From: Protoeuglena noctilucae
Taxonomy: Eukaryota
Reading direction: 5' to 3'
Length of the DNA stretch: 64,000 nt
NCBI GenBank assembly: GCA_958009085.1
Contig: OY253676.1
Coordinates: forward strand, 62,001-126,000
In this document: in pieces, positions 12,301-54,976 of the stretch
Layout of the letters: each line of letters starts with the position of its first letter
How positions within the stretch are numbered: position 1 is the stretch's first letter
Notes under the pieces: generated by a model
Databases searched by the model: none
The model's input: only the letters and a program-made list of their open reading frames with translations
What the model was told of the DNA's origin: nothing
Position numbers and translations under genes: made by a program

Positions 12301-15300
12301 GATGCCCGTGTCGTCGACGGTGAGCTTGCCGAGGTTGAAGTCGCGGAGGGCGCGGAGGAGGACCTGTGTTGGGGGGTGGGGGGTGAGGTTGAGAGTGAGG
12401 GTGGGGTGAGGTTGGGGTGAGGGTGCAAGGGGTGCAGCCCAGTATCAAGCACCGGGCATGCACAGCAGTGAGTGTATCAAGCGCTTGTATGCCACCCACG
12501 TCACACATCGCATCCGCATCCAGCCTGGTGGCTGGTACCAGCATTAAGCATAGCGCACCCCCGCCCACGCCACATACTAGAAAGTACTACTAATCGACCC
12601 CACCCCATCTCGCCTTCTCCTCGGTCATGTCCCACACCAAGCATGCACCCATGCACCCCATCGCCCATACCCCACACTATTAGATGCTACTAATCACCAC
12701 CCCCCAATCCCCATCTCGCCTTCTCCTCGGTCATGTCCGGCTCCTCCTTTTCGGCGATGCGCTTCATCCCCCCCGCGACGTACAGCGTGGTCTTGATGGC
12801 GCGCAGCTTCCAGTCGTAGTGGCGAGACTTGGACAGCAGGTCCTCGCACAGCTTGTACAAGATGACGAACTTGCGGGAGAGGATCTTGGAGGCCTGGAAC
12901 CCCTCGGCCATCAGCATGATCTCGCAGATGAGGCCCAGGTCGGGCACGACCATCGACACGGGGCGGAAGAGGGCTTTTAGGGACTCGGGCAGCTCGGCGC
13001 GCCCCGGGTAGCCAGGGTTCATGGTGATGAAGGCCATGACAGCGCGCTGGATGGGGATCTCGACTTCCTCGAACACGAAGCGTTCCTTCTGGCTCCTGGG
13101 GAGGGGGGGTGGGGGGGGTTGAGAGGTGAGGGGGGGTGAGTGGTGTGGGTGAGAGAGGGGGTGAGAGTGGGTGGGGTGGCAACGTGTGCGTGTTGACAGT
13201 TGACGGTGCGGCTTTCTAACCAAGTTCAGACAGTAACAGGATAGTAACTACAGCTGTACCCATTCCGCACATCATCGCCAACCTCCCCGCTCATCCCACA
13301 CCCCACAACACAACACATCCCACACCCCACATCTCTCCCCATCTCTCGCCTGAGCGCGTCGAGCACCGTCTTGTACTGCGTGGAGCACACCGACAGCACC
13401 GACACGGGGATGCGGTTGAACTCATCGAAGCACCCCCACGCCCCCGTCTGCGCCAGTCCCTTGTAGATCTGGCCCATGGCGCGGAAGTCCATCTGATCGC
13501 TGCAGTTGAAGACGTAGATCATAGTGGCCAAGTGCCTGGCCAGGTCCTTCACCGTCTCGGTCTTGCCGGTACCCGCGGGGCCGGCGGGGGCGCCGCCCAG
13601 CACCAGGCGCTGGGCCTGGGGGGATGGAGAGGGGGGTGGGGGTAAGTGAATGGGGGTGGGGAGTTGAGAAGAAAGAAGTAGAAACAGCAAGGGAGATGGG
13701 GTTAAGGTGCGGCAGCCACATGCCGCGTCAACACCCACACACACGCGCCCCATCCGCCATGATATAGATCCCGATACCCCCCTCGCCTGGGTGAGTGTGA
13801 TGTAGCAGCGGTCGGTGAGCGGCGTGATGCACAGGCACCCGGGGATGCCGATGTACTCGTAGTTGTAAGGGGCGTCGGCATCCACGATGTTGACCTGCAC
13901 CTCGCCCGTCTTGTCGTGGCGGTAGTATCGCAATTGCGACTGCCACTGGAAGCACGTGCCGTTCTCGACGCGCTCGTCGATGAGGCGCTGCACGACGTCC
14001 CGGCCGTGCACGTCGATGGTGCAGAGCATGATGAGCCGGCGGCGCTCGATCTTGGAGAGCGAGGGGCTGTTGATGACGTCGATGATGTCCGACAGCTGGT
14101 CGATCTGTGGATGGGAGAGGGGGGGGGGGGGGAGAGGGTGGGTGAGAGATGATCGAGGGTTGGTGAGCCAAGGGACTGCGCTCTTAGATGAATGGCGCAG
14201 GGGCTGCCCCGGACACTGTGCCTGTCAGCACCCCTTCCCACTCTCTTCCCACTTAATCTTAATCATCTTACCTGTCTCTGCAGCTCCACCTTGAGCGCCT
14301 CCTCGTTCCCGTCCTCCAACTCCGAGAACGCCTCGTTGATCTCCTGGGTCAAGTAGACGCGCGACACCACCACCGTCATCTGCACCGACATCTTGTTCGA
14401 CTCGCGGATCCAGTCGCGCCGCTTCATCTCCTCGTAAGAGGGCATCGCGCGCTCCTTGAACTCGTAGGAGACGGCTGGGGGGGGTGGGGGGTTAGGGGGA
14501 GTGGGGTGGCTGCGGGATGGGTGCGGTGGGGGCGGCACACGAGGGGGGAAGGATGGAGTGGGTATGTGGGAAGAGTGATGGGGTTGTTTGTCATATCATC
14601 AATTGCCATGTCAACTGCCATGCCACCACCCCCACTATCGGTTACATCCTCACCCTTGCGCATCCAGTCACCATCAACTACCATGCCACAACTCCCATTC
14701 CCACCCTCCGTCACCCCCTCACCCTTGCGCATCGAGTCGACGACCGTCTGCAGCCACACCTCCACCGGCCCGTCGCACAAGCAAGGAGGGGCGAACTCGG
14801 CGGGCGCGAACGGCATGACCTCCCCCTCCTTGCTGGTCATCTGCGTGGCCAGCTTGGTCAGAGCGCCCTTCTCGTCCTCCGCGTAGTCGAGCTTTGCGAT
14901 GTTGTCGAAGCACTTGGGGAGGTGGTCCTGGATCGCCTGGGATTGGGAATGGGGGAGAGGAGAGGGGTGGGTGTATGATATCATAAGGTCCGGGATGGCG
15001 TGTGATTGGGAATGGGGGAGAGGCGAGAGGTTTGGAGTTGTAGTCGGGGAGTGGGGGGGGGTCAGGTGCGGGTGCGACAGGGCCGGGCTTCTGGGCAGTA
15101 ACGGAGATACCACAGCAGCAGTCGAGAGCACACACGTATTTCGCCCGTGAAAGCGCAACACGTCTCGCTCTCTACCCCCACCCTACCCCCACCATCACCC
15201 ACTCACCAGTGGGTTCGACCCCTTGCTGAGCAGGTCCAGCAGCTCGGCGGCCGCCACGAAGTAGAAGCGCGGGAATGCCATGCGCTTCGTCTCCAGATAG

Positions 15301-18300
15301 TCCTGCAGCGCCTTCTCGCACGTCTCTAACTCCTTGTGCATGTTCTCCAGTCTCTCCTGACGGCCCTCGAGGTTGCACGCCTCGACCACGTTGGTGATGT
15401 CGGGGGCCGAGCGCATCAGGTCCTGGGGGGGGGGGGGGGGGGGGTGTAGGGGTGGTGGTGGTGGTGGGGGGTGAGGTGAGGTGGGGTTGGGTGGGTGGGC
15501 GCTAAAACGCAGCAAGACTGCAAGGTGGGAGTGGAAGAAAGCTAAGGTACGATGTGGTTGATGCCGGCACTAGCAATGAACCATATGCGGAATCGCAGGA
15601 GTAGGCAGTTGCTTTGCTGCATTGTCTCCCTCCCACCAATCGCTGACCTGGTAGTCGGTGTTGATGGCGTCGAAACGCTTTGAGTCCTCCGGCAGCTGCA
15701 CACGGATGTCCTGGGACCCCACGAAGATGCTCTCCAGATTCTGCCACTTCTTCTGCACCTCCAGCCACACCTGGGGTTGGGGAGAGGGGATGCGGTGTCA
15801 ATGCGACGCTTGCTATGATCAGCGTGGTCGGCATACGAAGGCATGCAAAGCCATGGGGAGCTAGCTATGAGTTGAGTAGCAAGCCACCATCTAACCGCCA
15901 TCTATCATGAACCCGCCCACCCACCCGATCGCAAGCGCACCCGACCGCACCCACGACCATTACCCCGCCCTCCACCCCTTTCTCACCTGCAGCGTCCCCT
16001 CGACGGTCCCGAGCTTCTTCTGCCACACGTTGACGATCTCCACGAACTTGGGGTTCCCCTGCACGTACTTGCCCCCCGCCATGCCCTGCAGTAGCATGTT
16101 GTCCTGCTCCAAAGCCTCGCGCACTTCGTCGGTCACTTCGACGCTGAAGGTGTCCGGGACGTCCGCGTAGGGCTTGAACTGCAAATCGTGGTTGTTCCAC
16201 GCCTCCTCGATCTTCCGCAGCTGCTTCTCGATCACCTCCTCCTTTTTGGCGCGATCGACAATGTCGCCGACCTCCTCCTGGAACATGTGCAGCTGCAAGT
16301 CCAGCAACGTCCCGAGCGTGAAGCTCTCGTCCATCACGAACTGCTTCCCCGTGGCCTTCATCAGCTGCTTCCAGTGCCGGTCGCGCATCGCGGGGTCGTG
16401 GAGGTCGGACACGAGCGGAAGGGACACCGACATGGCCTTCACCATGTCGTCCAGGTTCTTGTACACCTCGTACGTCCTCGCGGCCTTGCTGAGCGTCCGG
16501 ATGTCCTTGCTCAGCGCTTTGGTGCGCTCGGCGAGCATCTCCGTGTCGATGGACTCCCACTTGGTCGCGCGCCAGTCGTGGAAGATGAAGAACACGTAGG
16601 AGATCATGTCCCAGAGGGACTTCAGGTGCTCCAGCTCCTCCGCGCACCGCGTGAGGTGCACGTAGTCGACCACGTAGAGGTCAAACAGATCCTGGCACTC
16701 CTTCAGGTAATCGGCCTCTTTCATGAGCGCAGTCACGGAGTCCCAGCCGTCCACCTGTGGGGGGGAAGGGAGGATGGGGGGGTTGTAAGGTGGGTGGTGG
16801 ATGTTATTGAGATGTGGTGGGGCTAGGGAGTTGGGAAGCGTGCACCAAGCCGGGCAGCTGTGCATTGCAGCGCAACACTGTCACAGCATCGCGTCACCCC
16901 CATCACTCCCACTCAGTCACCTTGCCGTGGTGGAACTGGTCGAGCGTGCGGTACGCCTCCCAGATCCCCTCCAGCTCGATCTTGCCGCTGGGCGCCGTGA
17001 AGGGCGCGCGCTGCTGGAAGAAGCGCCGGAACTCCTCCACCTTCTGCCCGAATGCGTCGGCGCGGGTGCGGATCTTGGCGCCCTCGATCTGCTGCGCCAG
17101 GGCCACCTAGGGGGGGGGGGGAGGGGGGGAGGAGGGGTGTAAGAGAGAGAGGGGTTGTGTTGGGCTACTTAGGGGGGGGAGGGGTGTGGTTGGGAGGGGT
17201 GTTTGTTGTTAGGGAGAGAGGGGGTGGAGGTTGGTAGGGGCAGGGGAGCGCAGGTTGGTACAGGTGGGAGGAGGGCGAGGGAGTTAGATTGGGACGCAGA
17301 GCTGCATTGACCAAACATGAGTGCACCCTCACATTTACCTCGTTCACACCCCATCCACTCCCTCACCTCCCACCACACCCCATCCCCCACCACTCCCATC
17401 CACCCCTCACCTCCTCTTCCTTCGCCTCCATCTTCTTCTTCAAATTCTCAATCAATACCATCACTACCCACTCCCCATCTCTCACCTCCTCCTTCTTCGC
17501 CTCCATCTTCTTCTCCAAATTCTTCCACAGCCCCGGCACCTCCTCGAGCTTCTGCATGGCACGCTCGGGCACCACGTCGGCCGACGCGTGCATGTGCTGC
17601 CGGAGCAGGTCAACCGTGGCGGTGAGGGGCTCGAACATGGCGTCGGTGCGGTCCTTGCGCTTGCGGATGTCGCGCATGCAGCCCATGACCTGGGGGGGGG
17701 GGGGGGGTTGGGGGGGGGGGGTTGACGGTATGTGCGTGGGCCAAGTGGGTGAGTGAGTGATGAAGGGGTGGGTGGGCAGGTGGGTGGGTGAAGTGGGCAG
17801 GTTGTCCATCGTTACACACGTGATATTACAGATCCCATGACACCCCCACCACTCGCCTTGTACAGGCTCTGATTCATCTGCCACGACGCACCCATCACCA
17901 CAACCCCCCCCCCCCCCCCTTCCCAGTCAATATTGCTCATTGCACATGTGTCATGTACATAACAACTAACCTTGTACAGGCTCTGGTTCATCTGCGACGA
18001 CGCGTCGTTCTCCTCCTCCCCCTCCCCCTCCCCCTCCCCCTGCTCCTCCTCTCCCTCGCCCTCCTCAGCCTCGCCCTCGCCCTCCTCCTCTTCCCCGGAT
18101 GCCGGCTCCTGGGGGGCCGTGTCGTGCTGCGATGGGATAGATAGATGGAGAGAGAGATCATATGTTGTCACGACATGTGTTCACATGTGACGACATTTGG
18201 CGACATTGTACAGTACTGCTCGGGGGCCAGCAATGCTTGGGAACTACTAGGCAGCCCTTAAGGGTGGAAACAACAGCACAGGGTGTGCCAGCGGCGCTCC

Positions 18301-21300
18301 CCGCCCCTCCAACCACCCCCACCCCCACCCCAGCATTGCTCCTCGCCCCCCTCAGTCCCTCCAACCACCCCCACCCAAACAGCGCTCCCCGCCCCCCAAA
18401 CACCCCTAGCCACCCCATCGACAACAAGCAAACAACCACCCGTCCCCTTGCCTGCCCGACCGGGATGTCGAGCGTCTTGTCGGCCTTGTTCACGAAGTCG
18501 TAGAGCTCCTCGATGCTCTCCGTGACCCTGTTCTGCAGGTACCCGGTGAACTTGAACACCCACTGGGAGCACCGGTTGCTCAGCTGGGACTTGATCGTCT
18601 TGCAGGAGACGCGGAGCCAGCCGATGTCCTCCACCGCGCTCATGGCCGACAGCCGCTCCTGCACCGCCTTGTAGCCCAGGATCTGGGGAGGGAGGGGAGA
18701 TATGAGATGGGGTCTAGCTATAAATATATGTGGGTCTGGGCTAGGAGCTCTAAGCAGGGGTGGCGCTGGCGAGTGATGCAGTTGCACGTCAAACGCCAGC
18801 ACGCCCGACCAAAGCAGACTCTCATGCCCCGTCGTCACCACCGCAACCCATGCCGGCATTGAAATTCAAAACAAACCCCCGCCGCTGCAGTCACCTCCCC
18901 CACCCACAGCACATCGACCGCATCACACCCCGCACCCAGTCACCACCCCCATCGACCCCAACCCCCCATATCCTCACCTGTTTATCGAACTTCTCCAAAG
19001 GCGGGTCGTCGACCCTCTCCTTGGTCTCGGGACTGTACACCGCCTCGCGCGCCAGGAACGCCTCCAGCTCTGCCTGGGGGTTCTTGGCCCAGAGGTCCTC
19101 GTACTTCATCATGTCCTCGTAGAACTTGGCGCAGCGCTGCTCGTTCGCCATCACCATCTCCTGAGTGGGGGGGGGGGGGGTGAGCGAGCGTGGGCGATGG
19201 GCTTTGGGTGGGTGTGCGTTTCTCTGTTGCCACTGCTGCTTGAGACACGCACACACACCCCACAGCACACCTCCTTCTCTGTCACCCCTGCTCTCATCAC
19301 ACACACCACACACACAGCCCACACCACTCCCACACCCCTCACCTGCAGCCGCATGATGGCGTCGGCGACCACACACAGCACACACCCACTCACACACAAA
19401 CACCCACCCCCCTTCCGACAGCACGATCAACTCGCCTGCAGCCGTGTGATGGCGTCGGCGACCACGTAGTCGTCCTCGAGCTCGGCCGCGTACGTCCCCT
19501 CCCCGATGTCCAGCCGCTTCATCAGGTTGGCCACGTTCACGATGCGCCTCAGCCAGCCCGTGAACATGTCGCGAATACCGGAGCCGTCGGGCGCGGACCC
19601 GATCTCCGGCACCCATGCCACGCGCGCGCCCTCGTCGGAACCCGCGGGGGGGTCGAGCAATCGGATCTCCACCTCGAGCATCGGCGCGCGGTTGTTCTTG
19701 GCCATCGCGCGCGTGTCGAGCTCCTCCGCCATCTGCCGCAGCGTGGCGAGGATGCACGACGAGATGCCGTCCACCACCACGTTGCCAACATAGTCCACGT
19801 AGCTCTTCCAGGCAGCTGCCCCTTTCGAGACCTTGAGCGTGCGGTTGGAGTTGCTCAAAAGCGCGTGGATCTCGTTGGAGCCCTCCTCGATCTTGCTACA
19901 ACGCGCGTCGATGTGCTCGCGCACGAAGTCCTCCAGGTCGGTCTTGGCGAGGGGCTTGTCTTTGCGGGCGAAAAGCTTGTTGTCCTCCCACACCTTGAGG
20001 GTCGAAGACGTCTTCTTCACGTTGCCCTTGATGGTCGAGAGGATGTCCGAGAGCTCCTTCACCGACGCCAGGACCTGGGGGGTTGATGGGTGGGGGTGGA
20101 GGTGGGGGTGAAGGTGAGGGTGGCAATGGGGCTGGTGATGGGGGTGGGGATGGGGGTGGTGGCGAGCGTTGCATGTGCATGTAGTCATCCATCTGCTACC
20201 CCCCCATCACACACACACAAACACACACGCATCCACCCCCACACCTCCTGTATGTAGTCGCCCACCTCCTAACACACATCACCGCCACACACCCCCACCC
20301 CCTCACCTCCTGTATGTAGTCGTCGATCTTCTGGCTGTTCCAGTTGAGCGTGGTCAGCGCCTTCTGCAGCGTCTTGAGGATCGAGTCAAGGGACTTCTGC
20401 ACCAGCGGGCGCTCGATGTCCAACAGCGTCGTCTGGATGTTGTTGTAGATGCCGGAGATGAGGTCCAGGTTGCCCACCTGGCGGCTGGGGGGGAGAGGAG
20501 GGGGGGTGGGAGTGACGAGAAAGGGTGGGGGTGACGGGTGGTGAGCGACGAGGAAGAGAGGGAGTGTCGGGGGGTGTGTGATATGCGAAGCGATAAGCTG
20601 CGCTGGCTGTGTAGTGGTTGGGATCCCTGCATTGCGCATCTACCGAAGCCCGGCTGCAACCCTTGCTGTGTCACAGCCATCGCAGATCACCCACCGCCCT
20701 CTCACCGGTACACCTCGTTCTTCTCGTACACCTTGCGCGCCTGCTCCGGGATCTCCACCTCCAGAATCATGAAGTACTTGACCTCCCGCAGCAGCCGCAC
20801 GAGGGCCGGATCGAAGTTGACGCGGATGAGGACGGGGTCCGAGGGGTCCTTGACGAGCAGCGGCAGCTTGAGCTTGTCGTCGGAGGTTCGAGCCACCTCG
20901 GCGTACCACTTCTGAATCTTGCCCTGCTCGTACTCGGCCATCGCGCGCGTCAGCACGCCGTACATGAGTCGGATCTCGCCCACCAGCTCGTTCTCCACCC
21001 CGGCCTCCGCCATCGCATCGATCCGCTCCATGGGACCCGCCAGCCGCTGCTTGAGAGACCGCACCCACGCCACGGCCCCCGAGCAGGGCGCGGCGTTCTT
21101 GGGCAGGCTCGGGCTCTCCTTCGCACTGTGGAACATCAGGTACACCGCCTTGATGTCCTCGTGGAAGGCCGCGAGCAGGTCGTCGGTCTTCTTCTCCAGG
21201 TCGGCCTTGATGATGTCGCGATCGAGCAAGCCCTCAAACCCGTCGAGCAGTTTGAACGTGGCGTCGACCGTGTTGCAGTCGTCGAAGGCCTTGGTGATCA

Positions 21301-24088
21301 CCGACCCCAGCTGCCGCTCCAGCTCTCGCACCGTCGAGCGGAATCGGTAGAAGTCGGACTCGAACTGGCGCTCGTCCACGTCCATCAGGTTGTACTCCAC
21401 CTGGGGGGGGACAGAGGTATTAGGAAGTGAGTAATGGGTGTGGATTGGGACTGTAGCAGTCCCGACAGGGTGGGGAGGGGTTAACCGTGAGGGGTAAGGT
21501 GGGGGGGAGGGGGGGGGGTGGGGAAGTCGGAGAAACTCAGGGGGAAGTGAGCAGTGGGTGTGAATTGAGACTGTAGCAGTCTTGATAGGGTGGGGAGGGG
21601 TGGTCCCAACATGCATCGGAGGCTTGGCAGTGAGGGCAGCGCGACGGCATCGCCCCACACGCACAGCCTGGCTATCCAAACCGGATTACAGGGTTAGCCA
21701 ACCACAAACACATCCACCTAGACACTCAACCCACAATTCCTCGCCTGGCTCAGCTCCTCCCGGGCCTTGAGGAACTCGGTGTAGATCTGCTTGACCGTGA
21801 TGGTGAGCCCCTTGCCGTGGGTGCCGCCGATCTCGACGCGCTCCAGCCGCAGGAACTGCAGCATGGTCTCGGCCAGCTCGAGCAGGTCGTGCACGCGCTC
21901 GAGGAAGGCGTCGAGCCGCGCGAATAATGCCGAGTTCTGGAAGCGCCAGGGGTTGTCGGGGCACTCGTGCGCGGACTTGGACCGGTACTCGAAGTAGATG
22001 CTCTTGAAGGTGCCCAGGACGCGCAGGGCCATCTTGAGCTGCGTCACGGCGTCCTGGGGCTCGTCGGAGAGCACCTTGTCCGCCTCCACGTACTTGCACG
22101 CCTGGGCGATGAGGTCGTTGCAGATCTCGCGCATCAGGATTACCATGCGCTGGGGGGTGTTGTAGTGTTTCGAGTGCTTCCAGACCAACAGGACCTGGTG
22201 CATGAGCGGGCGGAACATGCCCGCCAGCTGCGGGAAGTCGTCCGAGAGCGACAGGCGCTCGAACCCTTTCTCCATCGGGCGTAAAAAGCGCAGGATGTGG
22301 TTGGCCTCGGCGCGCGCGTGCAGGACCTCCTTGAACAGCCGGCGGAAGGCCGTGTAGTACGTGCTCTTGGCCAGCTCCAGCACCCGCACCACCTTGGCGA
22401 TGCGCTCGCCCGAGACCTGCTCGTGGATTGAGTTGAGGTCCGCCGCACGGTGGCGCCAGAACTCGAGCTGCGAGGGAGAAAGAGGGTGTCATGTGCGGTG
22501 AGGAAGCAGCTATCGGAGCTCGCGTCGCTGTCGGCGACCGGAGCAGGGGAAGGCATTGAGTGGGACGGACGCTTGCGTGCGCAAGCGACCCTAGCGCCCC
22601 CCGGCATGGCAAAAGGCCCTCGCTGCTGCGCCCGGCCGGGGCTGTTAAAGCGACGCTCACCTCGGCGAGGGGTCCCGGGTGCTTGTCGGGCCCCTGAAAG
22701 ACCGAGTCCGGCTCCAGCTTGAGCACGTTCTTGATCTGGCGCGTCCACGTCACAACCGCCGACTCAATCACGTGGATAAGCTCCTTGTCGCCCACGTGGC
22801 TCTCGGGGGTGCCGTCGCCGCCCTCCAAGGGGGGCAGCGGCAGGAGCGTCTTGCCCTGCGGAGTGTATTACGAAGGGCGGGATTGATGGCGAGCATTGAA
22901 GCGGACACGCTGCACTCGCGGAGCGATCGGTGCGGGCCGCACCTGCGTCTGTCCGATGGTGACGTAGACGTTCGCCACGAACTTGTGCATGTTGTCCATG
23001 ACCTCGTGCGCGATGACCTCGGGCCAGCCGGCCTGGTTGCGCGGGTTGGTCAGGATGGGCAGGAAGACCTGCGGAGGGGCGGGGAGGGCCGCCGGTCGTT
23101 CGAGCGGGAGTATGGACTTACTTTCGAGCTTCCGCGGTGACTCGCGCGGAGAGCAACGCGTGCTCGTGGCCGTCACCTCCTGCGAGAGCGCATTGAGCTG
23201 GTCGAGCGGATTCTCGGCGAGCTCGCCGGCGATGACGTCCGACGCGATGTCCTGGCCAACCGGCTCGTGCCCATTGCGCTTGACGAAGTACAGGCTCTTG
23301 CGCCGGAGCTTGCTGGGGGGCTTGAACGTCAGCACGGGCTCCTTGCCGTCGCCCAGCACGAGGAGCAGGCGCGTCTCCGTGGTGTTGAGGAACGTGGACA
23401 GAGCCTCCCTGCAAGCGGGATGAGGGGACCGGGGGGGTCGCGCGGGAGGCGTCGCGGCAGCCCACCGATTCGGCCAAGCATGTCGTGGCAGCCCCGGCGC
23501 AGGGGGGCCACGCCGTGACCCGCGCGCCAAGCATCACAATGACAAGGACATTAGCAAATCATTGGGATGCGCCAGGGAGGCATCCGAGCTCCCTGGCCCG
23601 CGCCGCGGGCAACTTTAACGCGGCCACCCCACTCCGCCCCTCCGGCGCGCTGTGCGACCCCCGACTCACTTGATCTCGTCCACCTGCGAAAACAGCCTCT
23701 CCACCAACTCCTCCTTGTATCCCAGGTGCTCGACCGTCTTCTGCGGGTCGGGGAGAGCCAGGCAGGGAAGTTGAGGGGGCATGATCGTGAAAGCCGCGAT
23801 ACGTCGCATGAGATCAAATAAAGGGCCGGACAAAGGCTGCGGGGGGACCCGTCGTCGCCGAACGGGACCGGGCAGGGGAGGGGGCCACGAGGGTTCGAGC
23901 GTGGGCGCGCAATTGGCGTAGACTCGGCGTGGAGTGTCACCAGAATGTCGCCATCGAGCGGCGGGCGGAGAATCCGGCCCGGAGATGCGTCGGATGGGCA
24001 GGGTACGGGGCAGGCATGCGCGTCCCACCTGAGCGATCCAGTTGACCCTGTTGTCCACCTTGGCGATCCCTGCGTCGTCGTCCGCCAT
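3383..24088 (-). CDS. ODA4: Axonemal outer-arm dynein heavy chain beta; 30 exons / 29 introns by manual splicing
   Basis: Starts [20 protein letters not shown] and ends [15 protein letters not shown]. It has the tail domains, the linker (FPRFYFV), AAA1 GPAGTGKT and [11 protein letters not shown]2 [11 protein letters not shown]3 [11 protein letters not shown]4 GVGGSGRQS, a coiled-coil stalk/MTBD (7576-8287), AAA5 [11 protein letters not shown] and AAA6 SLGQGQ. The termini resemble Chlamydomonas beta DHC as recalled; no search was run. Confidence 0.93.
21423..21601. repeat. Intronic ~59-bp direct repeat (21423-21481 and 21543-21601), each copy with a small hairpin
   Basis: ggaagtgagtaatgggtgtggattgggactgtagcagtcccgacagggtggggaggggt versus ggaagtgagcagtgggtgtgaattgagactgtagcagtcttgatagggtggggaggggt. 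Confidence 0.9.
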
Positions 24089-30600: not shown

Positions 30601-33600
30601 GCCAACCAGTTCGCCGAGCGTCGCGTTTTGGACCTCGGCGCCACCCCGCGTTTGCTCGCCATCTGCCGCAACGCCGCGCTCCCACCCAAAGTCCGCGACT
30701 CATCGGCGGGCATGCTCTGCGATCTCTACGAGTACTTCCCCAACCACGCGCACATGGGGGGCATTACCCCCACGCTGCGCACCTTCGTGCATTTGGTGCA
30801 AACGGGGGTCCCTCTGTTGGAGCACAGGGGGGCGCTGTCGCTGGGGAGGGCGGCCTACCGCGCCCCCGCGCAGTGCGACGAGCCGGGGTTCCAGATCAAG
30901 GGTGAGATGAGGGGGGAGTGGGTGGTGTTTGATGGTGTGACCCATCACCCACCACGTGCATGCCTAGCACAGTACAGCACTGTTGTACTTACCAAAATTA
31001 CAGACCGGATCGCTCCACTCTCCCCTCCCTTACAGTCCGCCGCAAGGTGGCGCGCGTGGGCGGGGTGCGCGCCTTGGTGGGCCTGGTGCAGCACACGCAC
31101 AGCCGGTACCAGACGCTTTTGGAGATGGGCAGTCTGCAGCAGGAGCAGGTGGACCCCACGGAGGCCAACGCCAAGAAACTGGCGCGCATGTTCGACAGGG
31201 TGCAGGGGCAGCTGAAGGTGAGAGTGGGTATGCATGTTTGAGGAGATGGGGTGGGAGTGTTGGGCAGGGTGCAGGGGCAGCTCAAGGTGAGGGGGATGGG
31301 ATGAGAGTGTGCAATGGTGGCACGCATGTTCGACAGGGTGCAGGGGTAACTCAGTCCTCTACCATCCACAAGGCCCACATGAAGCAGCGATCGACATATC
31401 TGTGTGTCTCACTCCCTCGCAGACCATCCACAAGGCGCACAAGAAGCAGGGCCAGGACGGCCTGGGCGGCGCTCAGCAGATCGACTATGCGAATCGTGAG
31501 ATGACAATGATCAAGGCCCTGGTGGTTAACCGGAACAACAAGGAGGCCATGGGTGAGCGAATATGGCTGATGGTTAGCATGGATTGTAGTTAGTGAGACT
31601 ATGGTTGCCACCATTGCTTCTACTTATCCTGACTTATGGTCGTCAACAATAATAGTTACCATCACTGCTGATGACCGCCATTATCACTGATAATAATCAA
31701 CAACAATAATAACATATTCATCTCCACCCCCTTGTCCCTCCCCCAAGCCTCCGTGGATGCCGGGCTGGAGGTGGACTCGATGGACTTTTACGACGCGATT
31801 GTGGAGACGCAGGTCCTGGCACTCAAGGCGCTGCTCAACGTGTCCACATACCCCAAGAACCAGGCGAGGGAGGGGCAGTCGATGTGTTGGGGATGCATGT
31901 ATGGGTGTGCATATGGGCGATGCATGCATCCACATGCGTAATGAGCCCATGCAATACTGCGTCAGCACAACTACTGCTTCTTCACTCCTTACCCCTCACC
32001 AGTCCGCTCCCTCACTCCCTCTCTAACTCCCTCCCTCACCCCAACCCCTCCCTCTCCCTCCCCCAGGTCCGCATTGCCAAGGCCGGCCTCCTCACCCTGC
32101 TCGGCGTCAACAGCTTCTTCTCGGCCATGCTCCAGACGTCCCCACCGGGCACTCCCGAAGAAGAGATTCTCGTGCTTTCGTCTAAAGTGCTTCAGAACGT
32201 GGCTCTGCACCCGCTCAACCGCACCAGGCTATACCAGGCGGAGCTGGCTGGGGCCGTGCGCAAGGTGAGTGCGGGGGTGACGGGCATGCGACACGCGACC
32301 ACTAAGTTAGTAATGTTTTCACCACCGTCAGGGCCGTGTTCACCCTCAGCAGCTGCAACCCTCGACGCGCGTTGATCAACCAACACTTGTCCCCATCTCC
32401 CCATCTCTCTCCCCTATCCCAACTCTCTCTCTCCCCCTCCCAACTCTCTCTCTCCCCCACCCCTACCCCCCAGGTGGAGGTGATGGCGGAGGGCAAGCTG
32501 GCCGCGAAGGGCCTGGTGCCGATCTGGGGCCCGCTGGACAAAAAGCGCACCCCTTTGTTACGGTCCCCATCGCACGGCGGCAAGGCACTGCGGCGGGGCA
32601 AGGGCGACCCGCAGCACCGCAGCGCGCGGGGCTTGCACGGCGAGCAGAAGGCGCCCGTGCAGCCGGGCATGTCGAGCATGTCGCTGGGGGAGAGCCTGAG
32701 GGTGTACCTGCCGCTGACGGTGCCCAAGGGCAAAGCGCCCACGGACAGCATCCCACTCGCGGAGATACAGAGGCCCAAGGCGAGGAGATGGAGGGGGGGT
32801 GATACTGGTATTGATACTGATACTGATACTGATACCGATACCAATACTGTTACTGATACCGATGCGACTGCATTGGAGGCTTATCTCATCGCTGCATCGA
32901 CCGCGCTCATCAACACCCACTTCTCACCCCTCACTTACCCACTCCCTCGCACGTAAATCTCCTCACTCCCACTCACCCACTCACCCCTCTCCCACCCCAG
33001 GTCATGTTCCCCCCCATCGACACCCGCTCCCCCTCCGCCCTCGCCCCCACCGCCCCCGCCGTCTCCCAGCCCCGCGACCCCAGCCTGGTGCCCCAGGCAT
33101 GGCGCGGCACGGGGCCGACCAAGGACCGATTTGCCGACTGGGCCACGCAGACCTTCCCGGCCAGGAACGAGGACGGGAGGTCGATATTCTATGCGGACTC
33201 GTCGGACTCGGACGATGAGCTGGTGAGGGATGGGTGATGGATGTGGGTGCATGGGGAGTGGGAGCGTGTGTTTGGAGATGGTGGGGGGCTGCATGGGAGC
33301 GTGCGGGAAGGTGTGATGATTGAGGATATGAGAGGAGGAGACCTCGGCTAAGCTAGTGCAGCACGTCTGCTCTGTCACGCCACTCTCTCGCCCGTGCTGC
33401 AAGCATTTTTGCTTGTCAAGTTAACAATCGAATCCGCTCTCTGCACAGGGCAAGCTGGAGGAGGAGCGCGAGCTGCGCCTGCAGCTCCCCGCCCTCAACC
33501 AGTCCCTCCGCAAGCCCCTCTCGCACATGTGGGAGCTCCCGCCGGAGCACCCGCTGCGCCACGGCAAGGCCAGGTGGAACCCTCGGGTGTCAGAATACGT

Positions 33601-36600
33601 CCAGGCGAGCCGGGCGCGGATCGCTGCGGCGGGCCGCGCGCAAGAACTGTATTATTAGCACATATATTTAACGATTTCATGGTAAGCTTACCACGCGATC
33701 GCTCTCCGCGTCCGCAGTCGTCGACGTCTGACGCGCGCCCGGTGCACGACTCTGCCGTGCCCCTGCTGACGGTGAAGGACCCGAACCGCCACTCCCCGCA
33801 TCTGATGACGGCGTCGCTGGAGCTGAGCCAGACCGGGCAGCTGCCGGCCTTCCCGGACGATGCGGTGGTCACTGGTCGACCGGCCACGCCCGACCGAGGC
33901 AACGGCCGCGTGCCCCTGGTTCGATTCCTGCCGGAGAAGGAGCTGCCGTTGGCGATGGCGCTCAGCAAGCGCGGCAGGGACAACCGCAGGGCCAGGGCCG
34001 AGGCGGACAAGCTCGACGACGTCATGGTGAGGGGAGGGGGCAGTGGGGGGGGGGAGGGGAGCACTGCACAGCGACGGGGGCTGCGTGGCATGATCACATT
34101 CACAAACCACATTTCACCCCTTCTCCCTCTCAGCTCAAGGTCCAGCTGGCCCCCAACACCCCCCGCACCTGCATTGGCTTCGAGGCCACCGTCAAGGACT
34201 CCCGCGCCCCTTTGCGTGGCCGCCCTCGGCTGACCATGTTTGAGCACAGGCACGGGGCGCTGGTCTACGAGAGCCAGGTGGAGCCGTATCTGTTGCCCAA
34301 TGGGAGGAGCGCGTTTTTCTACTTCGACCCGGGCGACATGCACGACGAGGTGCCGGTCAAGGCGGGTGAGTGTGGGGGGGAGTGGCCTGGCGTGTGCGGT
34401 GGAGTTGGGTTGATGAGTGGTGATAGGTGAATGAGAGGGGAGTGGCATGCACGACGAGGTGCCCGTCAAGGCGGGTGAGTGGGGATGAAAGGGGTGAGTG
34501 GCACGCCCCCTGCATGGAGCTTTGGGCAGCAGCGCTCCCCACCCCTCTATTCCCCACGTACCACCGCCCCCACCCTTTCCACCCCCCCCAGGCGCCCGCC
34601 CCCAGCGCCCCAGCACCTTCCCCTCCGCCCTCCAGCGCCATATGCCCCTCGCCGCACTCCTCGACGTCATCTCCAAGCCCCCGGGGTCAGGGGTCGACAT
34701 CGTGCTGCTCAAGCCACTGCCGCAGGCGAGAGATGGGGGGGTCAGGATTGTAGGGAATGGGAGTACACTGTTGTGCTTATATGCAAACGTGCTTGGTGTT
34801 GCAAGACCGCAATACGCACGCATCTGCCCTTCCCCTGCCGCACCACCCCTGCCCCCCCCCCCCCCCCCCACACCCGCACATGCTCACCCCCCCCACCCCT
34901 CCTTACCCCCCCAGCTGGCCCGCCTGCCCTCCATGCACACCCTCCCCGTGCGCAACCCGGAGGTGCTGGAGGCCTGGGCGTTCGGCGACTTGGAGGAGAT
35001 CAACCTGCATTTCGTGCTCATGGTGGAGCGCACGGTTAGAGAGGACACGGACATCGCGGTGCATGAGGTGGAGGCCCCTCGCCCCAAGACGCCCTGGCGA
35101 CTGCCCGAGAGCATCTTCAAGCCCAGGCTCAAGGAGGCGGACAGCAAGGGGTTCTTCGACACACACCAGGTGAGGGGTTAAGCGAGCAAGGGGATGGGCG
35201 AGTGGATGGGCGGGGGAGGGGATGGGTGAGGGTGGTGACGTCGTGCGTGAGAGGGAGCATGTGTGGGAGCGAGCGAACAAACCTGCAAGCAAGCTAACGT
35301 GCTTTCGTTGGTGCAAATCACTATTCCTGCTTTTCTTCGTTTCCTCACCCATCAACCCCCCTCCCTCCTCCCCCCTCAGATCGAGGACCGCAACTTCGAG
35401 CGCAACTGGAAGCGCATGACCAGCAAGGAGAAGTTCATGTCATTCCTGGAACGAGAGGCACGCGGGCAGAAGGACAAGGACGTGAAGGCATTAGTGCGCG
35501 ATCTGCAGAAGCTCTTGCGCAAGCACTATGCGGTCATCAACGCGGTGTTCACCTACTACGCGATTGTCGGTGGCGGGTCGCCCTACACGATGGAGCTCAA
35601 CGACTTCACGAGTTTGCTCGAGACGTGCAATGTGCCTGACAAGGAGTCGGAGCTGTGCAAGAAGTCCGACTGCGACACAGTGTTCATCCAGTGCAACTTC
35701 CAGGCGAGGGGGGAAGGAATGGGATGTGGTGGGGGTAGGGGTGGGAGTGGGGTGCGGATGGTGGAAGTGGCTGGGTGGGTGTGGTGTAGGTGGCAGTGGG
35801 GGTGACGAGAGACACATGCGTACGCCACCCAACTCACGCACCCATTCCCCACCCAACTATCCACAGGAGAACAAGAACTCGATGGAGGCCAAGGTGGCCA
35901 CGGAGCACTCGATGCTGAGGCACGAGTTTTTGGAAGCCGTCATTCGCCTGGGCGTCAACAAGTACGGCAAGGGGCAGCAGACGACGGAGGTGGTGGAGGC
36001 CGTCGAGACGATTCTGGAGAACAACCTGCTCGCGTTGGTGCCCGAGGCGGCCAAGCTCGAGGCCAACCACTTCCGGTGAGGGCTTGGGGTTGGGGGTGGG
36101 TGGGGGTGTGGAGGTTGGTGTGCATGCGGGGCGATGAGAGGAAAAGGGTGGATGCGGAGAGCGCGGTGGCTGATTGCGGGGGGTTGCCGGGTTGCAACAG
36201 TGCTACCACCAAGAACCCTCTTTGCGATAATCGCTCATCGCTCATCGCTTGTCGCTCGTCACTCATGGTCACCCATCGCCCTCCGCAGCCGGGAGCGCCT
36301 GTACTTCGAGGAGGTCGACTTGCTGCTCAAGCGCTTCAAGAAAGAGCTCACGATGCTGTACATCCGCTACCGCCTGCCCCCCAAGGGCGGCGGCCTGCGC
36401 CCCAAGCTCTGGAAGCAGTACTGCTGGGAGGGATTCGTGAACGACGCGAACCTGATCGACGACACGCTCTCGATCCAGCAGTCGCTGCTCTCCTTCGCCC
36501 AGTCGCGCATGATGGTGGCCGACGAGATTGCGCAGTGGGCAAAGTACGAGACCATGACGTTCGTCGACTTCCTCGAGGCGCTGGGAAGGGTCGCCGACAT

Positions 36601-40600: not shown

Positions 40601-41890
40601 GGCGTGCATCGGCATCGCCAAAGTGGCCACGCTCAGGGAACTCAACCTGACCGGTGAGGGGGTGATTGCGGGATGTTTGATATCACAGTGTTACCATGTG
40701 CCGTCCGCTGTGGATCCCTCATGTTGCCCACGCCCACCCTCGCCACGCATCGCCCCACTACCTCACCCACCGTCACAGCCCCCACCCGCACCCCATCTCG
40801 ACTTACAGCACTCACTTCATCTCCATTCACAGACACGAAGGTCTCCGATGCGGGCGTGTCCAGCCTTACTCGCCTGGTGCATTTGGAGAGATTGGACCTC
40901 GGTCACTCGGATGTGGAAGACATGGCGTGTGACCACCTCTCGCACCTCACGTCGCTCACGGCATTGGGACTCGACTGTGCGAACGTCACGGACGCGGGCG
41001 TGAAGAGACTGGCGACACTTAAGGGGCTGCGGGTGAGGGTGGGGTGTGGTGTGGGTGTGGGTGGGGGTGAGGGTGAGGGTGTGGGTGCGGGTGCGGGTGT
41101 GCGTGGGGGCTGTGAAGGTGGGGTGAGGGTGTTACATGGGGTAACCCTGACATGTGTCGAGTGCGGGTGTAACACAAGTAAAGCCCCACCCTTCTCTCTA
41201 CCCCAGGAGCTGGACCTGTTCAGCGCCAAGCTCCACGACGAGTCGGTGCGCATTCTGGCACGCATGTCAGGCCTGACGCGGCTGGAGGTCTGCGGGGGAA
41301 AGCTGTCGGACGGGAGCGCGGTGCACCTGGCACAAATGAGGAATATGCGGGCGCTGTCGCTGGCACAGAACGGGAAGTGAGTGACTGAGGGTGTGGGTGT
41401 GCGTAGGCTCTGTCACTCTACCCAAATGCGCTGTAACTCTGCACCACCCATACCCATGTAAACACCCCGTCTATTATGTGCCCGCAGCATCACCAGCCGG
41501 ACCTGCGCCGCCCTCGCCACCCTGCCCTCCCTCACCGCCCTCAACCTCTCCCACACAAGTGAGGGGCGCATGCTGCATAGAGCGTGGCACTCTGCACACC
41601 ACGAGCGCACTGAATCAATGACCATCGCTGCTGGCCCTCTTCCGCAATCCGCACCCACCCATGCAGCCATCCCATTCCACCCCATCACCAACCCCACACC
41701 ATACACAGCCCCACCCACGCACCCATCCCACCCCATGTCACCCCCCCCAGGCATCGACAACGAGGGTCTCGCAGCCCTGGCCGCCCTCCCCGGCCTGGTC
41801 AGCGTGGCTGCCACCAACACATGTGCGGATGCGCGGGGGGTGGCGCGGCTGCGAGACGCATCAAAGAGCGTCGTCCAGATTGCCCTGTAA
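37650..41890 (+). CDS. Leucine-rich repeat (RNI-like) protein, plant At1g15740/FBXL14-like family; 5' exons uncertain
   Basis: N-terminal LLDACLDRL..SLDCLPCDLAQLLLDRVI..YPGVTDAWV segment, then many LxxLDLxGCxxVTD repeats (38910-41890). Stop TAA at 41888-41890. The candidate start MGGAAAW at 37650 is tentative. Confidence 0.8.
38495..38529. repeat. (GCACCC)n hexamer microsatellite in an intron
   Basis: About 6 units in the C-rich 3' arm of an LRR-gene intron. Confidence 0.9.
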
Positions 41891-45051: not shown

Positions 45052-45340
45052 GGCGACCCGACCAGCTAAATGCCCTGTCATTTGGCCTTGCGTGGCGAAG
45101 CCCAGGCGTGGTCCATGGAACGCGAAGTGGACAGCAAGCGACGCCGAGCCCGTGCCACAGCGCATGTGTTTCACCTCCAAACGTCGTCACCCTGGACGGG
45201 AAAGTGCGGGCGGCGCGGTCAGACGCAAGTAAACATGTCAGGCTCTCTGTTGGAACCAGCCATGACCCAATGGCCGCCTGCGCCCTCTTACTGGTTAGCA
45301 TTCGCGTGATTGTGTAGCCGGCACCCAGCGCGCGCGCTTG

Positions 45341-47468: not shown

Positions 47469-47766
47469 GCTGCGGGGCCCCACGCACGCTGTCGGCCCCA
47501 TCTCCGCCTGGAAGGAGCGCTCTTTCTGAAAATGCAGTGCTGCCCTAACCCATTGCACGAAGGCCGGGGTCATACCCAGGGAGGGCAATGCCGTACCCGT
47601 CACGGCGCCGCACCACAAGGAGGACGCGGGGCGTCACGCTTGTTCACATAGATTAGCAAACTGAATGGCCCTTTGCGGGCTGTCACTCTGAGCCGATGCC
47701 TCAGAGAAAAGCATGAGCAGTCCGAGGCTTGGCCCCGCGGGCTCCTGAGCCCCGGGCTCGGAACAC

Positions 47767-53700: not shown

Positions 53701-54976
53701 GAGGAGGGGGGGGAGTGGACCACGGAGCGCATCGGGCAGGTGACGAGGGGTGCGAGGGTGTGTGGGTGTGTGGGGGTGGGTGGTGCATGGTTGGATCGGG
53801 CAGGTGACAAGGGGTGGACGGGTGGGTGTCAGCATGGCTGCACTGCGTCAACCCTCGCTTTGCTTATTTCCCCAACACCCATCCCACGCTTCATGGAAAC
53901 ACCCTCACCTCCCATCTCCCACCCCCCCAGTTCCTCTGCCCCACCCTCACCCATCCCACCTCAGCCCCATCCCACCTCACCCCATTCAAACACCCTCACC
54001 TCCTGCCCCCCCAGTTCCTCTGCGCCATCCTCCACGTCTCCGACCTCGGCCACGCCCTCAAGGGCCCCCACCTCCACGCCCGCTGGACCCGCCGGGCCCT
54101 GTCCGAGTTCTTTGCCGAGGCCGAGATGCTCAAGGAGATCGGATCCCAGCCGCTGCCCTTCATGGACCCCGCGAAGTGCTTCGTGCCGGCGGCGCAGATG
54201 GAATACCTCGATTTCGTGGTCCGGCCGTTCGTGGTCGCCATGGCCAGGATCGTCCCGGCCCTCGCGCCTCTACCTAGGGCCGTCGCCTGCAACTACACCG
54301 CATGGGTGGAGCTGCTGCGGGTCGAGCCGGGCGCGCCCGTGTCCAGCAGGGGGTCGAGCAAGGTGAGGGAGGGCGCGGGGTATGAGGTGGGGTGGGGTGG
54401 GGCTTTTGTGTTGCGCATGGCACACGCCGGATGTTCAAGCGTCGCAAGCAGCGCACCCACTCCTTGTTCTGCTCATCACATGTGCCGTGCAACACCTCAC
54501 AACACCCTTCGTTGGCCCCTGCAGAAAGGCGTGTCTCTCGCGTCCCCGCCCCTGGCCCCCCCCGCACGCACGGAGACGAGCGACTCGTCGGGTCTGGTGG
54601 GGGGAGACGGGGAGAGCGAGGGGGCGGAGGGGTCGGAGGCCGCGATGGCCGTCGCGCTCATGGGGCTGCCCAGGGCACCCGAGGTGAGGGCTGTGGGGTC
54701 AGGGTGGGTCACGGTGCGGTGAGAGTGGGCGAGGGTGGCGTGGATGGGGCTGCCCAGGTCACGCGTGGTGTACGAAATAGCCCATTCCATTCATCCTCGT
54801 CCACACTGACTCTTCCATCGCCCACTCTCGTACTCTGATCGTCTCCTACCTCCCCCCTTCATCGATTGCAGAAGGTCCGTGCGGCTGACCCGGACGACCT
54901 GCGCCGCGCCTTCCTCCAGAAACTGGGCCCCTTCGCGCCATCGGCACGGAGAGACACGCGACTGGACGCGCGATGA
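47767..54976 (+). CDS. Class I 3',5'-cyclic nucleotide phosphodiesterase with a multi-pass N-terminal membrane region
   Basis: Catalytic motifs in 53053-54360: PYHCWRHAVDV, ALGHDVRHRGVSNQFL, YNDQSVQEMMH, ILDTDMASHF, LHVSDLGH, W....LSEFF, PFMD and the invariant Q in AAQMEYLDFVV. About 6 hydrophobic segments lie in exons 48233-50385. Stop TGA at 54974-54976; the start is approximate. Confidence 0.85.

What the first reader, a model, noticed from the sequence alone, without database searches (positions are those of the whole stretch)
12604..54776. 'Echo introns': introns repeatedly contain degenerate copies of their own flanking exon end plus splice site
Seen directly in four unrelated genes. 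Donor-side echoes (true exon end -> copy): dynein 12720->12614, 14723->14654, 17486->17411, 17971->17857, 19436->19343, 20307->20245; ARM gene ~26905->~26970, ~29858->~29913, 31217->31286 and ->31346, 34365->34474; LRR ~39296->~39356 and ->~39381; PDE ~53739->~53803, ~54683->~54767. Acceptor-side echoes: dynein ~14936->~15000, ARM 31423->31361, PDE ~54014->~53931. The copies are about 15-45 nt long, lie 55-130 nt from the original and usually keep a GT/GC donor or an AG acceptor. Each echo copies its own local exon, so this is not a transposon/introner family. Inference: a recurrent process duplicates splice-junction DNA locally (slippage or repair stimulated by G/C tracts, or RNA-templated events). 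This would build or expand introns and seed decoy or alternative splice sites. I do not know of this being described as a systematic genome feature.
Basis: partly seen in the sequence, partly recalled or inferred. Interest (0 to 1): 0.85.

Follow-up and report, generated by a model that had tools for sequence, protein, structure and literature searches.

The report
Tandem duplications straddling splice junctions
In this GC-rich marine green alga about one intron in eight carries a decaying nearby copy of its own exon end plus splice site, left by short local DNA duplications that lengthen introns and plant strong decoy splice sites.

Summary
14 of the 18 claimed pairs are clear local copies; 4 are no better than chance (26905, 29858 and both 39296 pairs). 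A uniform scan found 16 direct-repeat clusters at offsets of 40-200 nt, against a mean of 0.3 in control offset bands. Counting the two clusters in intron 31218-31422 as one event gives 15 events. Ten straddle a donor junction, 3 an acceptor junction, 2 lie wholly inside introns, and none is exonic or intergenic.

Exon ends match their own intron in 9 of 105 cases, against 9 of 10,920 for other introns. An independent run holds the same sequence, and RNA contigs splice at the authentic donor, skipping the copy.

The copies are direct, mostly head-to-tail duplications of 62-138 nt. They decay neutrally, and 9 of 10 still carry a donor site of authentic strength.

Best reading: these are ordinary DNA-level tandem duplications. 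They survive because the splice site next to the true exon stays in use. The donor-side excess exceeds a uniform-duplication null (P about 5e-4), but it rests on one window and its cause is open.

The closest known case is the human F7 intron-7 minisatellite. My literature searches found no systematic description.

The parts
12555..12738 (-). Donor-side echo in the dynein heavy-chain gene. The unit is about 98-106 nt: 19 nt of exon end (12720-12738) plus the intron start. The copy lies at 12555-12632 inside intron 12364-12719.
   Evidence: The core is identical (19/19 exon nt). The echo donor scores 11.9 bits against 12.0 for the authentic donor.
14611..14738 (-). Donor-side echo with period 63-69. 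The exon end is 14723-14738 and beyond; the copy lies at 14611-14669 inside intron 14475-14722. A partial third copy lies just below.
   Evidence: An RNA contig joins about 14474 to 14723, so the authentic donor is used. One X1 contig piece holds both copies.
14924..15031 (-). Acceptor-side echo with period 63. It comprises 13 nt of exon start (14924-14936) plus the intron end. The copy lies at 14987-15031 inside intron 14937-15206. The AG has been lost in the copy.
   Evidence: 39/45 identical.
17390..17523 (-). Donor-side echo with period 75-78. It copies 38 nt of exon end (17486-17523). The copy lies at 17390-17448 inside intron 17107-17485.
   Evidence: The echo donor scores 15.5 bits against 15.0. 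My first gene-finder pass called the copy a 36-nt exon, and a tblastn HSP reads through it.
17848..18038 (-). Donor-side echo with period 114. About 68 nt of exon end are copied (17971-18038). The copy lies at 17848-17924 inside intron 17690-17970.
   Evidence: The echo donor scores 14.7 bits against 8.5 for the authentic donor. Not bridged by the listed X1 pieces.
19307..19465 (-). Donor-side echo with period 93. It copies 30 nt of exon end (19436-19465). The copy lies at 19338-19372 inside intron 19161-19435.
   Evidence: The echo donor scores 16.0 bits against 11.0. By eye, a 5-nt microhomology sits at the unit borders.
20209..20322 (-). Donor-side echo with period 62-63. It copies 16 nt of exon end (20307-20322). 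The copy lies at 20209-20260 inside intron 20075-20306. A weaker third copy lies further in.
31180..31353 (+). Donor-side echo in 2.5 copies of a 69-nt unit (38 nt of exon end plus 31 nt of intron). The third copy (31318-31346) is truncated before the donor.
   Evidence: (TRF, period 69, 2.5 copies).
31361..31449 (+). Acceptor-side echo with period 62, in the same intron 31218-31422. The first 27 nt of the exon (31423-31449) are copied at 31361-31387.
   Evidence: 25/27 identical.
34337..34502 (+). Donor-side echo 109 nt downstream. The exon end 34337-34365 plus about 21 nt of intron are copied at 34446-34502. The 59-nt spacer is not duplicated.
   Evidence: RNA contigs of X9 and X12 join 34366 to 34593 and skip the copy. 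By eye, a 10-nt microhomology sits at the borders.
53731..53828 (+). Donor-side echo in the phosphodiesterase gene, period 64. It lies in intron 53740-54014.
53878..54051 (+). Acceptor-side echo with period 84-91, in the same intron 53740-54014. The copy keeps the C-rich tract and the AG.
54660..54770 (+). Donor-side echo 84 nt downstream. Only the last 24-27 exon nt are copied, and the donor in the copy has decayed (-5.0 bits).
21423..21601 (-). Wholly intronic direct duplication with period 120, in intron 21401-21744. It is one of only two non-junction events found.
   Evidence: 52/59 identical.
18294..18417 (-). Wholly intronic, C-rich, low-complexity direct repeat (period 52-88), in intron 18127-18451.

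Best explanation
These are short direct duplications of genomic DNA, 62-138 nt long and mostly head to tail, whose unit happens to span a splice junction. After such a duplication the splice site that adjoins the real exon goes on being used: the upstream one of two donors, or the downstream one of two acceptors. The mRNA is therefore unchanged. The inner copy is removed with the intron, which grows by one unit.

The inner copy then decays like any neutral intron sequence, while its exon parent is held by selection. This is why the exon-derived part stays recognisable longest.

Duplications lying wholly in exons are purged, so junction-spanning ones make up a large share of the survivors. The events are recurrent and of different ages.

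Shown: the copies exist; they are direct and local; they decay neutrally; the authentic site is used in the two visible cases; the introns are longer.

Inferred: the molecular route (replication slippage, microhomology-mediated tandem duplication or break-repair synthesis), and the cause of the donor-side excess.
For: Local and direct only:
- 16 direct pairs with blastn score >=36 at offsets under 200 nt, against 0 inverted pairs.
- No dispersed family.

Tandem architecture:
- Under a strict criterion, homology covers 29-94% of the period.
- TRF reports 2.5 copies at 31180-31353.
- Gapped alignments extend over most of the unit in the events at 12555, 14611, 17390, 20209, 53731 and 53878.

Neutral decay:
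- The exon-derived part of the copies is 84% identical (198/236) and the junction core is 88% (140/160). These do not differ (p=0.39).
- The intron-derived part is 66% identical (204/307), roughly the doubled divergence expected when both copies drift.

Splicing:
- RNA contigs join 34366->34593 and about 14474->14723, using the authentic donors.
- In human F7 intron 7 only the most upstream of identical repeated donors is selected (PMC1557585, abstract read).

Intron growth:
- Median length is 261 nt with an echo and 180 nt without (p=0.0006).
- Summing the periods by hand gives about 1.1 kb of the 20.8 kb of intron.

A uniform-duplication simulation already predicts that 46% of detectable survivors are junction-spanning.
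Against: The simple model under-predicts the donor class. Among detected events it expects 24% donor, 23% acceptor, 28% intronic and 26% other. Observed: 10, 3, 2 and 0 of 15.
- P(donor >=10) = 5e-4; chi-square p = 8e-4.
- Among events with estimated per-copy divergence <=0.10, where the simulation detected at least about 90% of every class up to t=0.08, 7 of 10 are donor-side (P = 0.001).
- Microhomology density does not explain it. Exact 6-mers at 55-125 nt spacing occur at 0.59 per 1000 start positions for donor-spanning units, against 0.90 for intronic ones.

Several copies are not full tandem units. At 34337-34502, 54660-54770 and the third copy at 31318-31346, the spacer or the second intron part is missing.

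All of this rests on one 64-kb window. Six of the 10 donor events lie in one gene.
Confidence: 0.75

Rival explanations
1. A mutational hotspot at donor junctions. The G-rich tract that starts each intron on the coding strand promotes breaks or fork stalling, for example through G-quadruplex or R-loop formation during transcription. Repair synthesis then re-copies the adjoining 60-140 nt, which includes the exon end. This would refine the best explanation rather than replace it.
For: - Donor excess over the uniform null (10 of 15; P = 5e-4; 7 of 10 young events, P = 0.001).
- No event in the 11.2 kb outside gene models (P = 0.012).
- Echo introns have more G runs in their first 60 nt (3.7 vs 2.6, p = 0.03) and a higher G fraction (0.51 vs 0.43, p = 0.05).
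- Introns are strongly polar, with G-rich starts and C-rich ends.
Against: - Almost all introns here have G-rich starts, so the association barely discriminates between them.
- The sample is small and post hoc, and the events cluster in the dynein gene.
- No direct evidence exists for G4 structures, R-loops or breaks.
- Selection against decoy acceptors could account for part of the donor:acceptor asymmetry (10:3, p = 0.09).
Confidence: 0.35
2. The inner copies are kept by selection as functional elements: alternative donors giving in-frame insertions, back-up sites, or extra U1-binding sites that help define the intron.
For: - 9 of 10 echo donors score within the authentic range.
- In two introns the echo donor is stronger than the authentic one (14.7 vs 8.5 bits; 16.0 vs 11.0).
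- Three read-throughs are open and in frame (75, 114 and 69 nt).
Against: - The junction core of the copies is no better conserved than the rest of the exon-derived part (88% vs 84%, p = 0.39).
- Donor-to-echo distances are multiples of 3 in only 5 of the 11 measured, plus the 69-nt unit of intron 31218 (expected about 4 of 12), and 2 of those 5 read-throughs contain stops.
- RNA contigs use the authentic donor in both visible cases.
Confidence: 0.07
3. An RNA-templated event: pre-mRNA or a splicing intermediate is reverse-transcribed and inserted nearby.
For: - All events lie in transcribed gene bodies.
- In intron 31218-31422 a copy of the upstream exon end lies 14 nt from a copy of the downstream exon start, which loosely resembles a spliced junction.
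Against: - The copies contain exon end and intron start in one piece, so they are unspliced.
- They are head to tail with the parent, always in direct orientation, and carry no tail or spliced junction.
- The adjacency in intron 31218-31422 is forced, because the two echo sets fill that 205-nt intron.
Confidence: 0.03
4. Chance similarity in low-complexity introns, or an assembly artefact.
For: Introns are low in complexity. The window comes from short-read assembly, and two events are not bridged by the independent contigs.
Against: - 16 clusters against a mean of 0.3 in control offset bands.
- Pure exon sequence matches its own intron in 9 of 105 cases, against 9 of 10,920 for other introns.
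- The copies are diverged, which assembly errors do not produce.
- Contigs from another study match without letter differences across 7 of 9 tested events.
Confidence: 0.02

Closest known systems
Human F7 intron-7 37-bp minisatellite, whose first unit spans the exon 7 / intron 7 boundary (Borensztajn et al. 2006, PMC1557585; abstract read)
   Same: In both, a tandem repeat has a first unit made of exon end plus donor. The authentic donor is therefore followed by copies of itself inside the intron. The copies are competent sites, yet the most upstream one is used.
   Different: F7 is a single locus with several identical units in a mammal. Here about 12% of 105 introns, in at least 3 genes, carry 2-2.5 diverged units of 62-138 nt, each derived from its own exon. 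Acceptor-side versions also occur. Polymorphism in copy number was not testable here.
Intron gain by tandem genomic duplication of an AGGT-containing exon segment (reviewed in PMC3443670, section 8 read; Hellsten et al. 2011, PMC3265369, passages read; Rogers 1989 and Gao and Lynch 2009 known only from recall and from reference lists, as PMC2791625 is not held)
   Same: Both involve a short tandem duplication inside a gene, made harmless because duplicated splice signals let the extra DNA be spliced out.
   Different: In that model an exon segment is duplicated and a new intron of exactly unit length is born between the two AGGT copies. Here the unit already contains a working junction. The intron existed beforehand, is longer than the unit, and is only extended.
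Small tandem duplications from break repair or microhomology (Schimmel et al. 2021, PMC8355091; microhomology-mediated tandem duplication in S. pombe, bioRxiv 10.1101/2020.03.03.972455; both seen only in the search listing and abstract start)
   Same: Similar size class, direct head-to-tail copies, and short microhomologies seen by eye at two events.
   Different: No position bias toward splice donors is part of those descriptions, as far as the listing shows. Microhomology density does not predict the bias here.
Introners / introner-like elements (PMC9860276; listing and abstract start only)
   Same: Both add sequence to introns in algae on a genomic scale.
   Different: Introners are dispersed families of mobile elements. 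Here each copy matches only its own exon and no family exists.

Membership tests
Junction-spanning tandem repeat with repeated pseudo-donors (F7 IVS7 type) | The first repeat unit contains exon end plus donor, and the following units lie in the intron | tested here: met
   10 donor-side events. Full-unit homology is clear in 6 or more of them and partial in the rest.
Junction-spanning tandem repeat with repeated pseudo-donors (F7 IVS7 type) | The repeated sites are competent donor sequences | tested here: met
   9 of 10 echo donors score 9.2-16.0 bits. That is above the 99th percentile (8.5) of intronic GT/GC sites, and the authentic median is 11.0. Competence is inferred from sequence only.
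Junction-spanning tandem repeat with repeated pseudo-donors (F7 IVS7 type) | Only the most upstream donor is used | tested here: inconclusive
   Met in the 2 events visible in RNA contigs (34366 and 14722). Contigs drop rare isoforms, and the other 8 events were not seen.
Junction-spanning tandem repeat with repeated pseudo-donors (F7 IVS7 type) | Variable copy number between individuals (VNTR) | not testable with these tools
   Only contigs of one other run were laid, and they were identical.
Intron gain by tandem duplication of an AGGT exon segment | Intron length equals the duplicated unit. The intron start copies the downstream exon start, and the intron end copies the upstream exon end. 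| tested here: not met
   Echo introns are 188-379 nt against units of 62-138 nt. The copy of the upstream exon end lies mid-intron, followed by its own donor.
Introner / transposon-derived intron sequence | A dispersed family of similar elements in many introns | tested here: not met
   Exon ends match their own intron and not others. 12 of 14 strong self-hits lie within 200 nt.
Microhomology-mediated tandem duplication | A short identical sequence at the unit start and immediately after the unit end | tested here: inconclusive
   By eye, 5 nt at the 19161-19435 event and 10 nt at the 34366-34591 event. Older events are too diverged to judge. The class-wise microhomology density does not match the event distribution.

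The most novel reading that the evidence does not exclude
This alga has a donor-junction-targeted duplication process. The G-rich start of each intron acts as a transcription-linked fragile site, and its repair repeatedly re-copies the exon end plus donor. That would make junction duplication a systematic engine of intron growth. It would also be a source of the G-rich intron starts themselves: at 17848-17924 the intron's poly-G tract is a decayed copy of a GAG/GGG-rich exon end. And it would give a standing supply of strong decoy or alternative donors.
Probability: 0.3. Interest if true: 0.8.

Novelty: new variant of a known kind. Interest (0 to 1): 0.55.

Why it matters
If the pattern holds genome-wide, it gives a simple and directly observable route by which introns grow and acquire competing splice sites. 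It would also be a natural experiment on splice-site choice: dozens of introns with two near-equal donors 60-140 nt apart.

It is a practical hazard as well. My first gene-finder pass called two copies as small exons, 36 and 39 nt, and tblastn read through one of them. Such echoes can corrupt gene models of GC-rich algal genomes.

The donor-side bias, if confirmed, would link intron sequence composition to local mutability.

Tried and rejected
- Whole genome of the window: none is held, so no genome-wide test was possible.
- Close relatives: the single scan of metagenome contigs, using a dynein exon, returned only one distant locus (L001, 34% identity, GC 44%). It holds no local repeats by the same criterion. 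At 12.9 kb and from an unrelated organism, that says little.
- Full-length own protein for the dynein gene: not among the 120 listed hits of 1408-4020 aa. The best were 64-65% identical. I used P0005 and P0046 only to map exons.
- In-frame idea: distances are multiples of 3 in 5 of 11 measured, plus the 69-nt unit of intron 31218 (about 4 of 12 expected); dropped.
- Conservation or gene conversion of the echo splice-site core: not supported (88% vs 84%, p = 0.39).
- Templated insertions in both orientations (polymerase-theta style): no excess of local inverted copies.
- Microhomology density as the cause of the donor bias: rejected.
LRR and phosphodiesterase are confirmed.
- Earlier notes of this scan: three look-ups returned nothing that bears on this finding.
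In some searches some alignments hit the overlapping region itself and were redone.
Full report
**What the window is**

The window is 60-71% GC. It carries intron-rich eukaryotic genes with extreme codon bias: GC3 is 0.94 over 3,757 dynein codons.

A dynein heavy-chain gene lies on the minus strand (Pfam). Its best named relatives are trebouxiophyte green algae at 58-65% identity. Run searches place the DNA in marine metagenomes and in runs of a coded 'organism A'.

I trained a small Viterbi gene finder on the dynein exons mapped by tblastn. I retrained it with splice-site matrices and obtained models for nine gene stretches:
- dynein, 3386-24088 (-)
- an LRR gene, 37818-41887 (+)
- a phosphodiesterase gene, 47767-54973 (+)
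- smaller ones.

105 introns were kept. Their features in the training set:
- donors read AG|G(T/C)GAG followed by G-rich sequence, with 61 GT and 18 GC among the 79 training introns
- acceptors are C-rich and end in CAG
- median length is 203 nt.

They also agree with nine junctions seen in metatranscriptome contigs. Eight fall within the stated ambiguity and one is offset by 3 nt on both sides.

Yes. Pairwise alignments and a self-blastn show clear local copies for 14 of the 18 claimed pairs. The pairs at 26905, 29858 and both at 39296 score no better than the upper tail of unrelated exon-intron pairs.

Three controls show the signal is far above chance:
1. With raw score >=40 there are 15 direct pairs at offsets under 200 nt, against 0.31 per equally wide offset bin further away.
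2. With a uniform rule (24-nt window, >=21 matches, offsets 40-200) there are 16 clusters, against 0,0,0,0,2,0,0,0,0,1 in ten control offset bands.
3. The last 40 nt of an exon reach SW >=28 in their own downstream intron in 9 of 105 cases, against 9 of 10,920 exon-intron pairs from different junctions. For exon starts against their own upstream intron the figures are 2 of 105 against 8 of 10,920.

Below the threshold a slight donor-side shift remains. The own intron ranks among the top five for 21 of 105 exon ends, and the Mann-Whitney p is 0.0095. Older, faded copies are therefore likely.

Contigs of run X1 come from a different study. They match the laid 20 kb with no letter differences and three 1-nt indels (19166, 21509, 34045), none inside a copy. 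A single piece contains both copies for 7 of the 9 events in that stretch. The events at 17848 and 20230 are not bridged. Because the copies are diverged from their parents, an assembly artefact is unlikely in any case.

**Anatomy**

The two clusters in intron 31218-31422 belong to one locus, so the 16 clusters make 15 events:
- 10 span a donor junction, in introns ending or starting at 12719, 14722, 17485, 17970, 19435, 20306, 31218, 34366, 53740 and 54684
- 3 span an acceptor junction (14937, 31422, 54014)
- 2 lie wholly within introns (21423-21601 and 18294-18417)
- none lies wholly in an exon
- none lies in the 11.2 kb outside the gene models.

Other features:
- All copies are in direct orientation. 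Local inverted copies show no excess: 0 pairs with score >=36 within 200 nt, against 16 direct.
- Periods are 62-138 nt.
- In most events the homology runs over exon end, donor and the following intron sequence, so that two units lie head to tail.
- TRF.5 copies of a 69-nt unit at 31180-31353.
- A few events are partial. At 34337-34502 only about 57 nt were re-copied 59 nt further on. At 54660-54770 only the exon end was copied.
- Two introns (31218-31422 and 53740-54014) carry both donor-side and acceptor-side copies. In the first, most of its 205 nt consist of such copies.

**Behaviour of the copies**

They decay as neutral DNA. The exon-derived part is 84% identical to the exon (198/236). 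The 16-nt junction core is 88% identical (140/160), which is not different (p = 0.39). The intron-derived part, where both partners drift, is 66% identical (204/307).

Estimated per-copy divergence ranges from 0 to 0.25, so the events are recurrent and not a single burst.

All 10 measurable echo donors keep GT or GC. Nine score 9.2-16.0 bits on the donor matrix, where authentic donors have a median of 11.0 and intronic GT/GC sites a 99th percentile of 8.5. In two introns the echo donor is the stronger site. Only 1 of 3 acceptor copies keeps its AG.

RNA contigs from two runs join 34366 to 34593, and one contig joins about 14474 to 14723. In the two visible cases, then, the authentic donor is used and the copy is spliced out.

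Echo introns are longer, with a median of 261 against 180 nt (p = 0.0006).

**How it most likely works**

A short tandem duplication whose unit contains a junction leaves two splice sites in series. If the site that adjoins the true exon is used, the mRNA is unchanged and the extra unit becomes intron. This 'outermost site' behaviour is documented experimentally for the repeated donors of human F7 intron 7 (PMC1557585, abstract).

Duplications wholly inside exons add coding sequence and are mostly lost. So junction-spanning events should be common among survivors.

I simulated uniform tandem duplications of the observed sizes on the real annotation, removing exonic ones. Neutral sites mutated at 1-29% per copy and the same detection rule was applied. 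Among detected events the simulation predicts 24% donor-spanning, 23% acceptor-spanning, 28% intronic and 26% other. The bare existence of echoes is therefore expected from ordinary mutation plus selection.

**What is not explained**

The observed split of 10/3/2/0 departs from that expectation:
- P(donor >=10 of 15) = 5e-4
- P(junction >=13) = 0.0016
- chi-square p = 8e-4.

Restricting the count to young events (estimated divergence <=0.10; in the simulation all classes were detected at about 90% or better up to t = 0.08) leaves 7 donor events of 10 (P = 0.001).

The density of short exact repeats that could mediate slippage is highest for intronic units, not donor-spanning ones.

Echo introns have somewhat more G runs at their start (3.7 against 2.6, p = 0.03). 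A hotspot at the G-rich intron start is therefore a live possibility, but several points weaken the case:
- the sample is one window
- six donor events sit in one gene
- the tests were designed after seeing the data.

Selection against decoy acceptors may add to the donor:acceptor asymmetry (10:3, p = 0.09).

**Rejected readings**

- RNA-templated copying does not fit unspliced, head-to-tail, same-strand copies.
- A transposon or introner family is excluded because each copy matches only its own exon.
- A maintained function is not supported by the decay pattern, by the phase of the insertions (5 of 11 measured distances, plus the 69-nt unit of intron 31218, are multiples of three) or by the RNA contigs.

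**Comparison with what is known**

The closest precedent is the F7 intron-7 minisatellite.

The tandem-duplication model of intron birth (PMC3443670, section 8; PMC3265369, passages) shares the principle but not the anatomy. Here existing introns are extended, not created.

Gao and Lynch 2009 probably bears on partial duplications of exon-intron boundaries, but it is not held, so I could not check it.

Seven completed searches listed no paper that describes junction-spanning duplications as a frequent, donor-biased genome feature. The library lacks most subscription journals, so this is not proof of absence.

**Verdict**

This is a real, statistically solid pattern with an ordinary core mechanism, and it shows up at an unusually high frequency (13 of 105 introns). 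The donor-side excess is unexplained and worth a genome-wide test.

Noticed in passing
window 3386-24088 (-): In the dynein heavy-chain gene the 3' half has very long exons (2219, 1569 and 1222 nt) and few introns. The 5' half (11.1-24 kb) is intron-dense. This is the pattern usually ascribed to intron loss from the 3' end through reverse-transcribed mRNA.
   Followed up: no
all 105 modelled introns; e.g. 17690-17970: Introns are strongly polar: G-rich after the donor and C-rich before the acceptor. In intron 17690-17970 a 22-nt G run and a C run 206 nt apart are complementary (95%), so the two intron ends could pair.
   Followed up: partly
whole window: GC-AG introns are frequent: 18 of 79 training introns and 22 of 105 modelled introns start with GC, nearly all as GCGAG.
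   Followed up: partly
17411-17446 (-) and 34436-34474 (+): My first gene-finder pass called two echo copies as small in-frame exons of 36 and 39 nt, and tblastn reads through the first. RNA contigs skip the second. Echoes are a trap for automatic annotation.
   Followed up: yes
17848-17924 and 17971-18126 (-): The exon end here encodes a GAG/GGG-rich repeat (TRF 18010-18096). Its intronic copy has decayed into the long poly-G tract of the intron. This suggests that some G-rich intron starts derive from exon sequence.
   Followed up: partly
31218-31422 (+): This 205-nt intron is made almost entirely of copies of its two flanking exon ends. A copy of the upstream end lies 14 nt from a copy of the downstream start.
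   Followed up: partly
14599-14640 and about 20186-20200 (-): Weaker third copies of the exon-end motif lie further inside introns 14475-14722 and 20075-20306. They hint at repeated rounds of duplication.
   Followed up: no
window 17504, 16119, 23183 and others: Several loose ends of RNA contigs from runs X10 and X12 continue into sequence that is absent from the window. They could come from other strains, from alternative exons outside the stretch, or from other organisms in the metatranscriptome.
   Followed up: no
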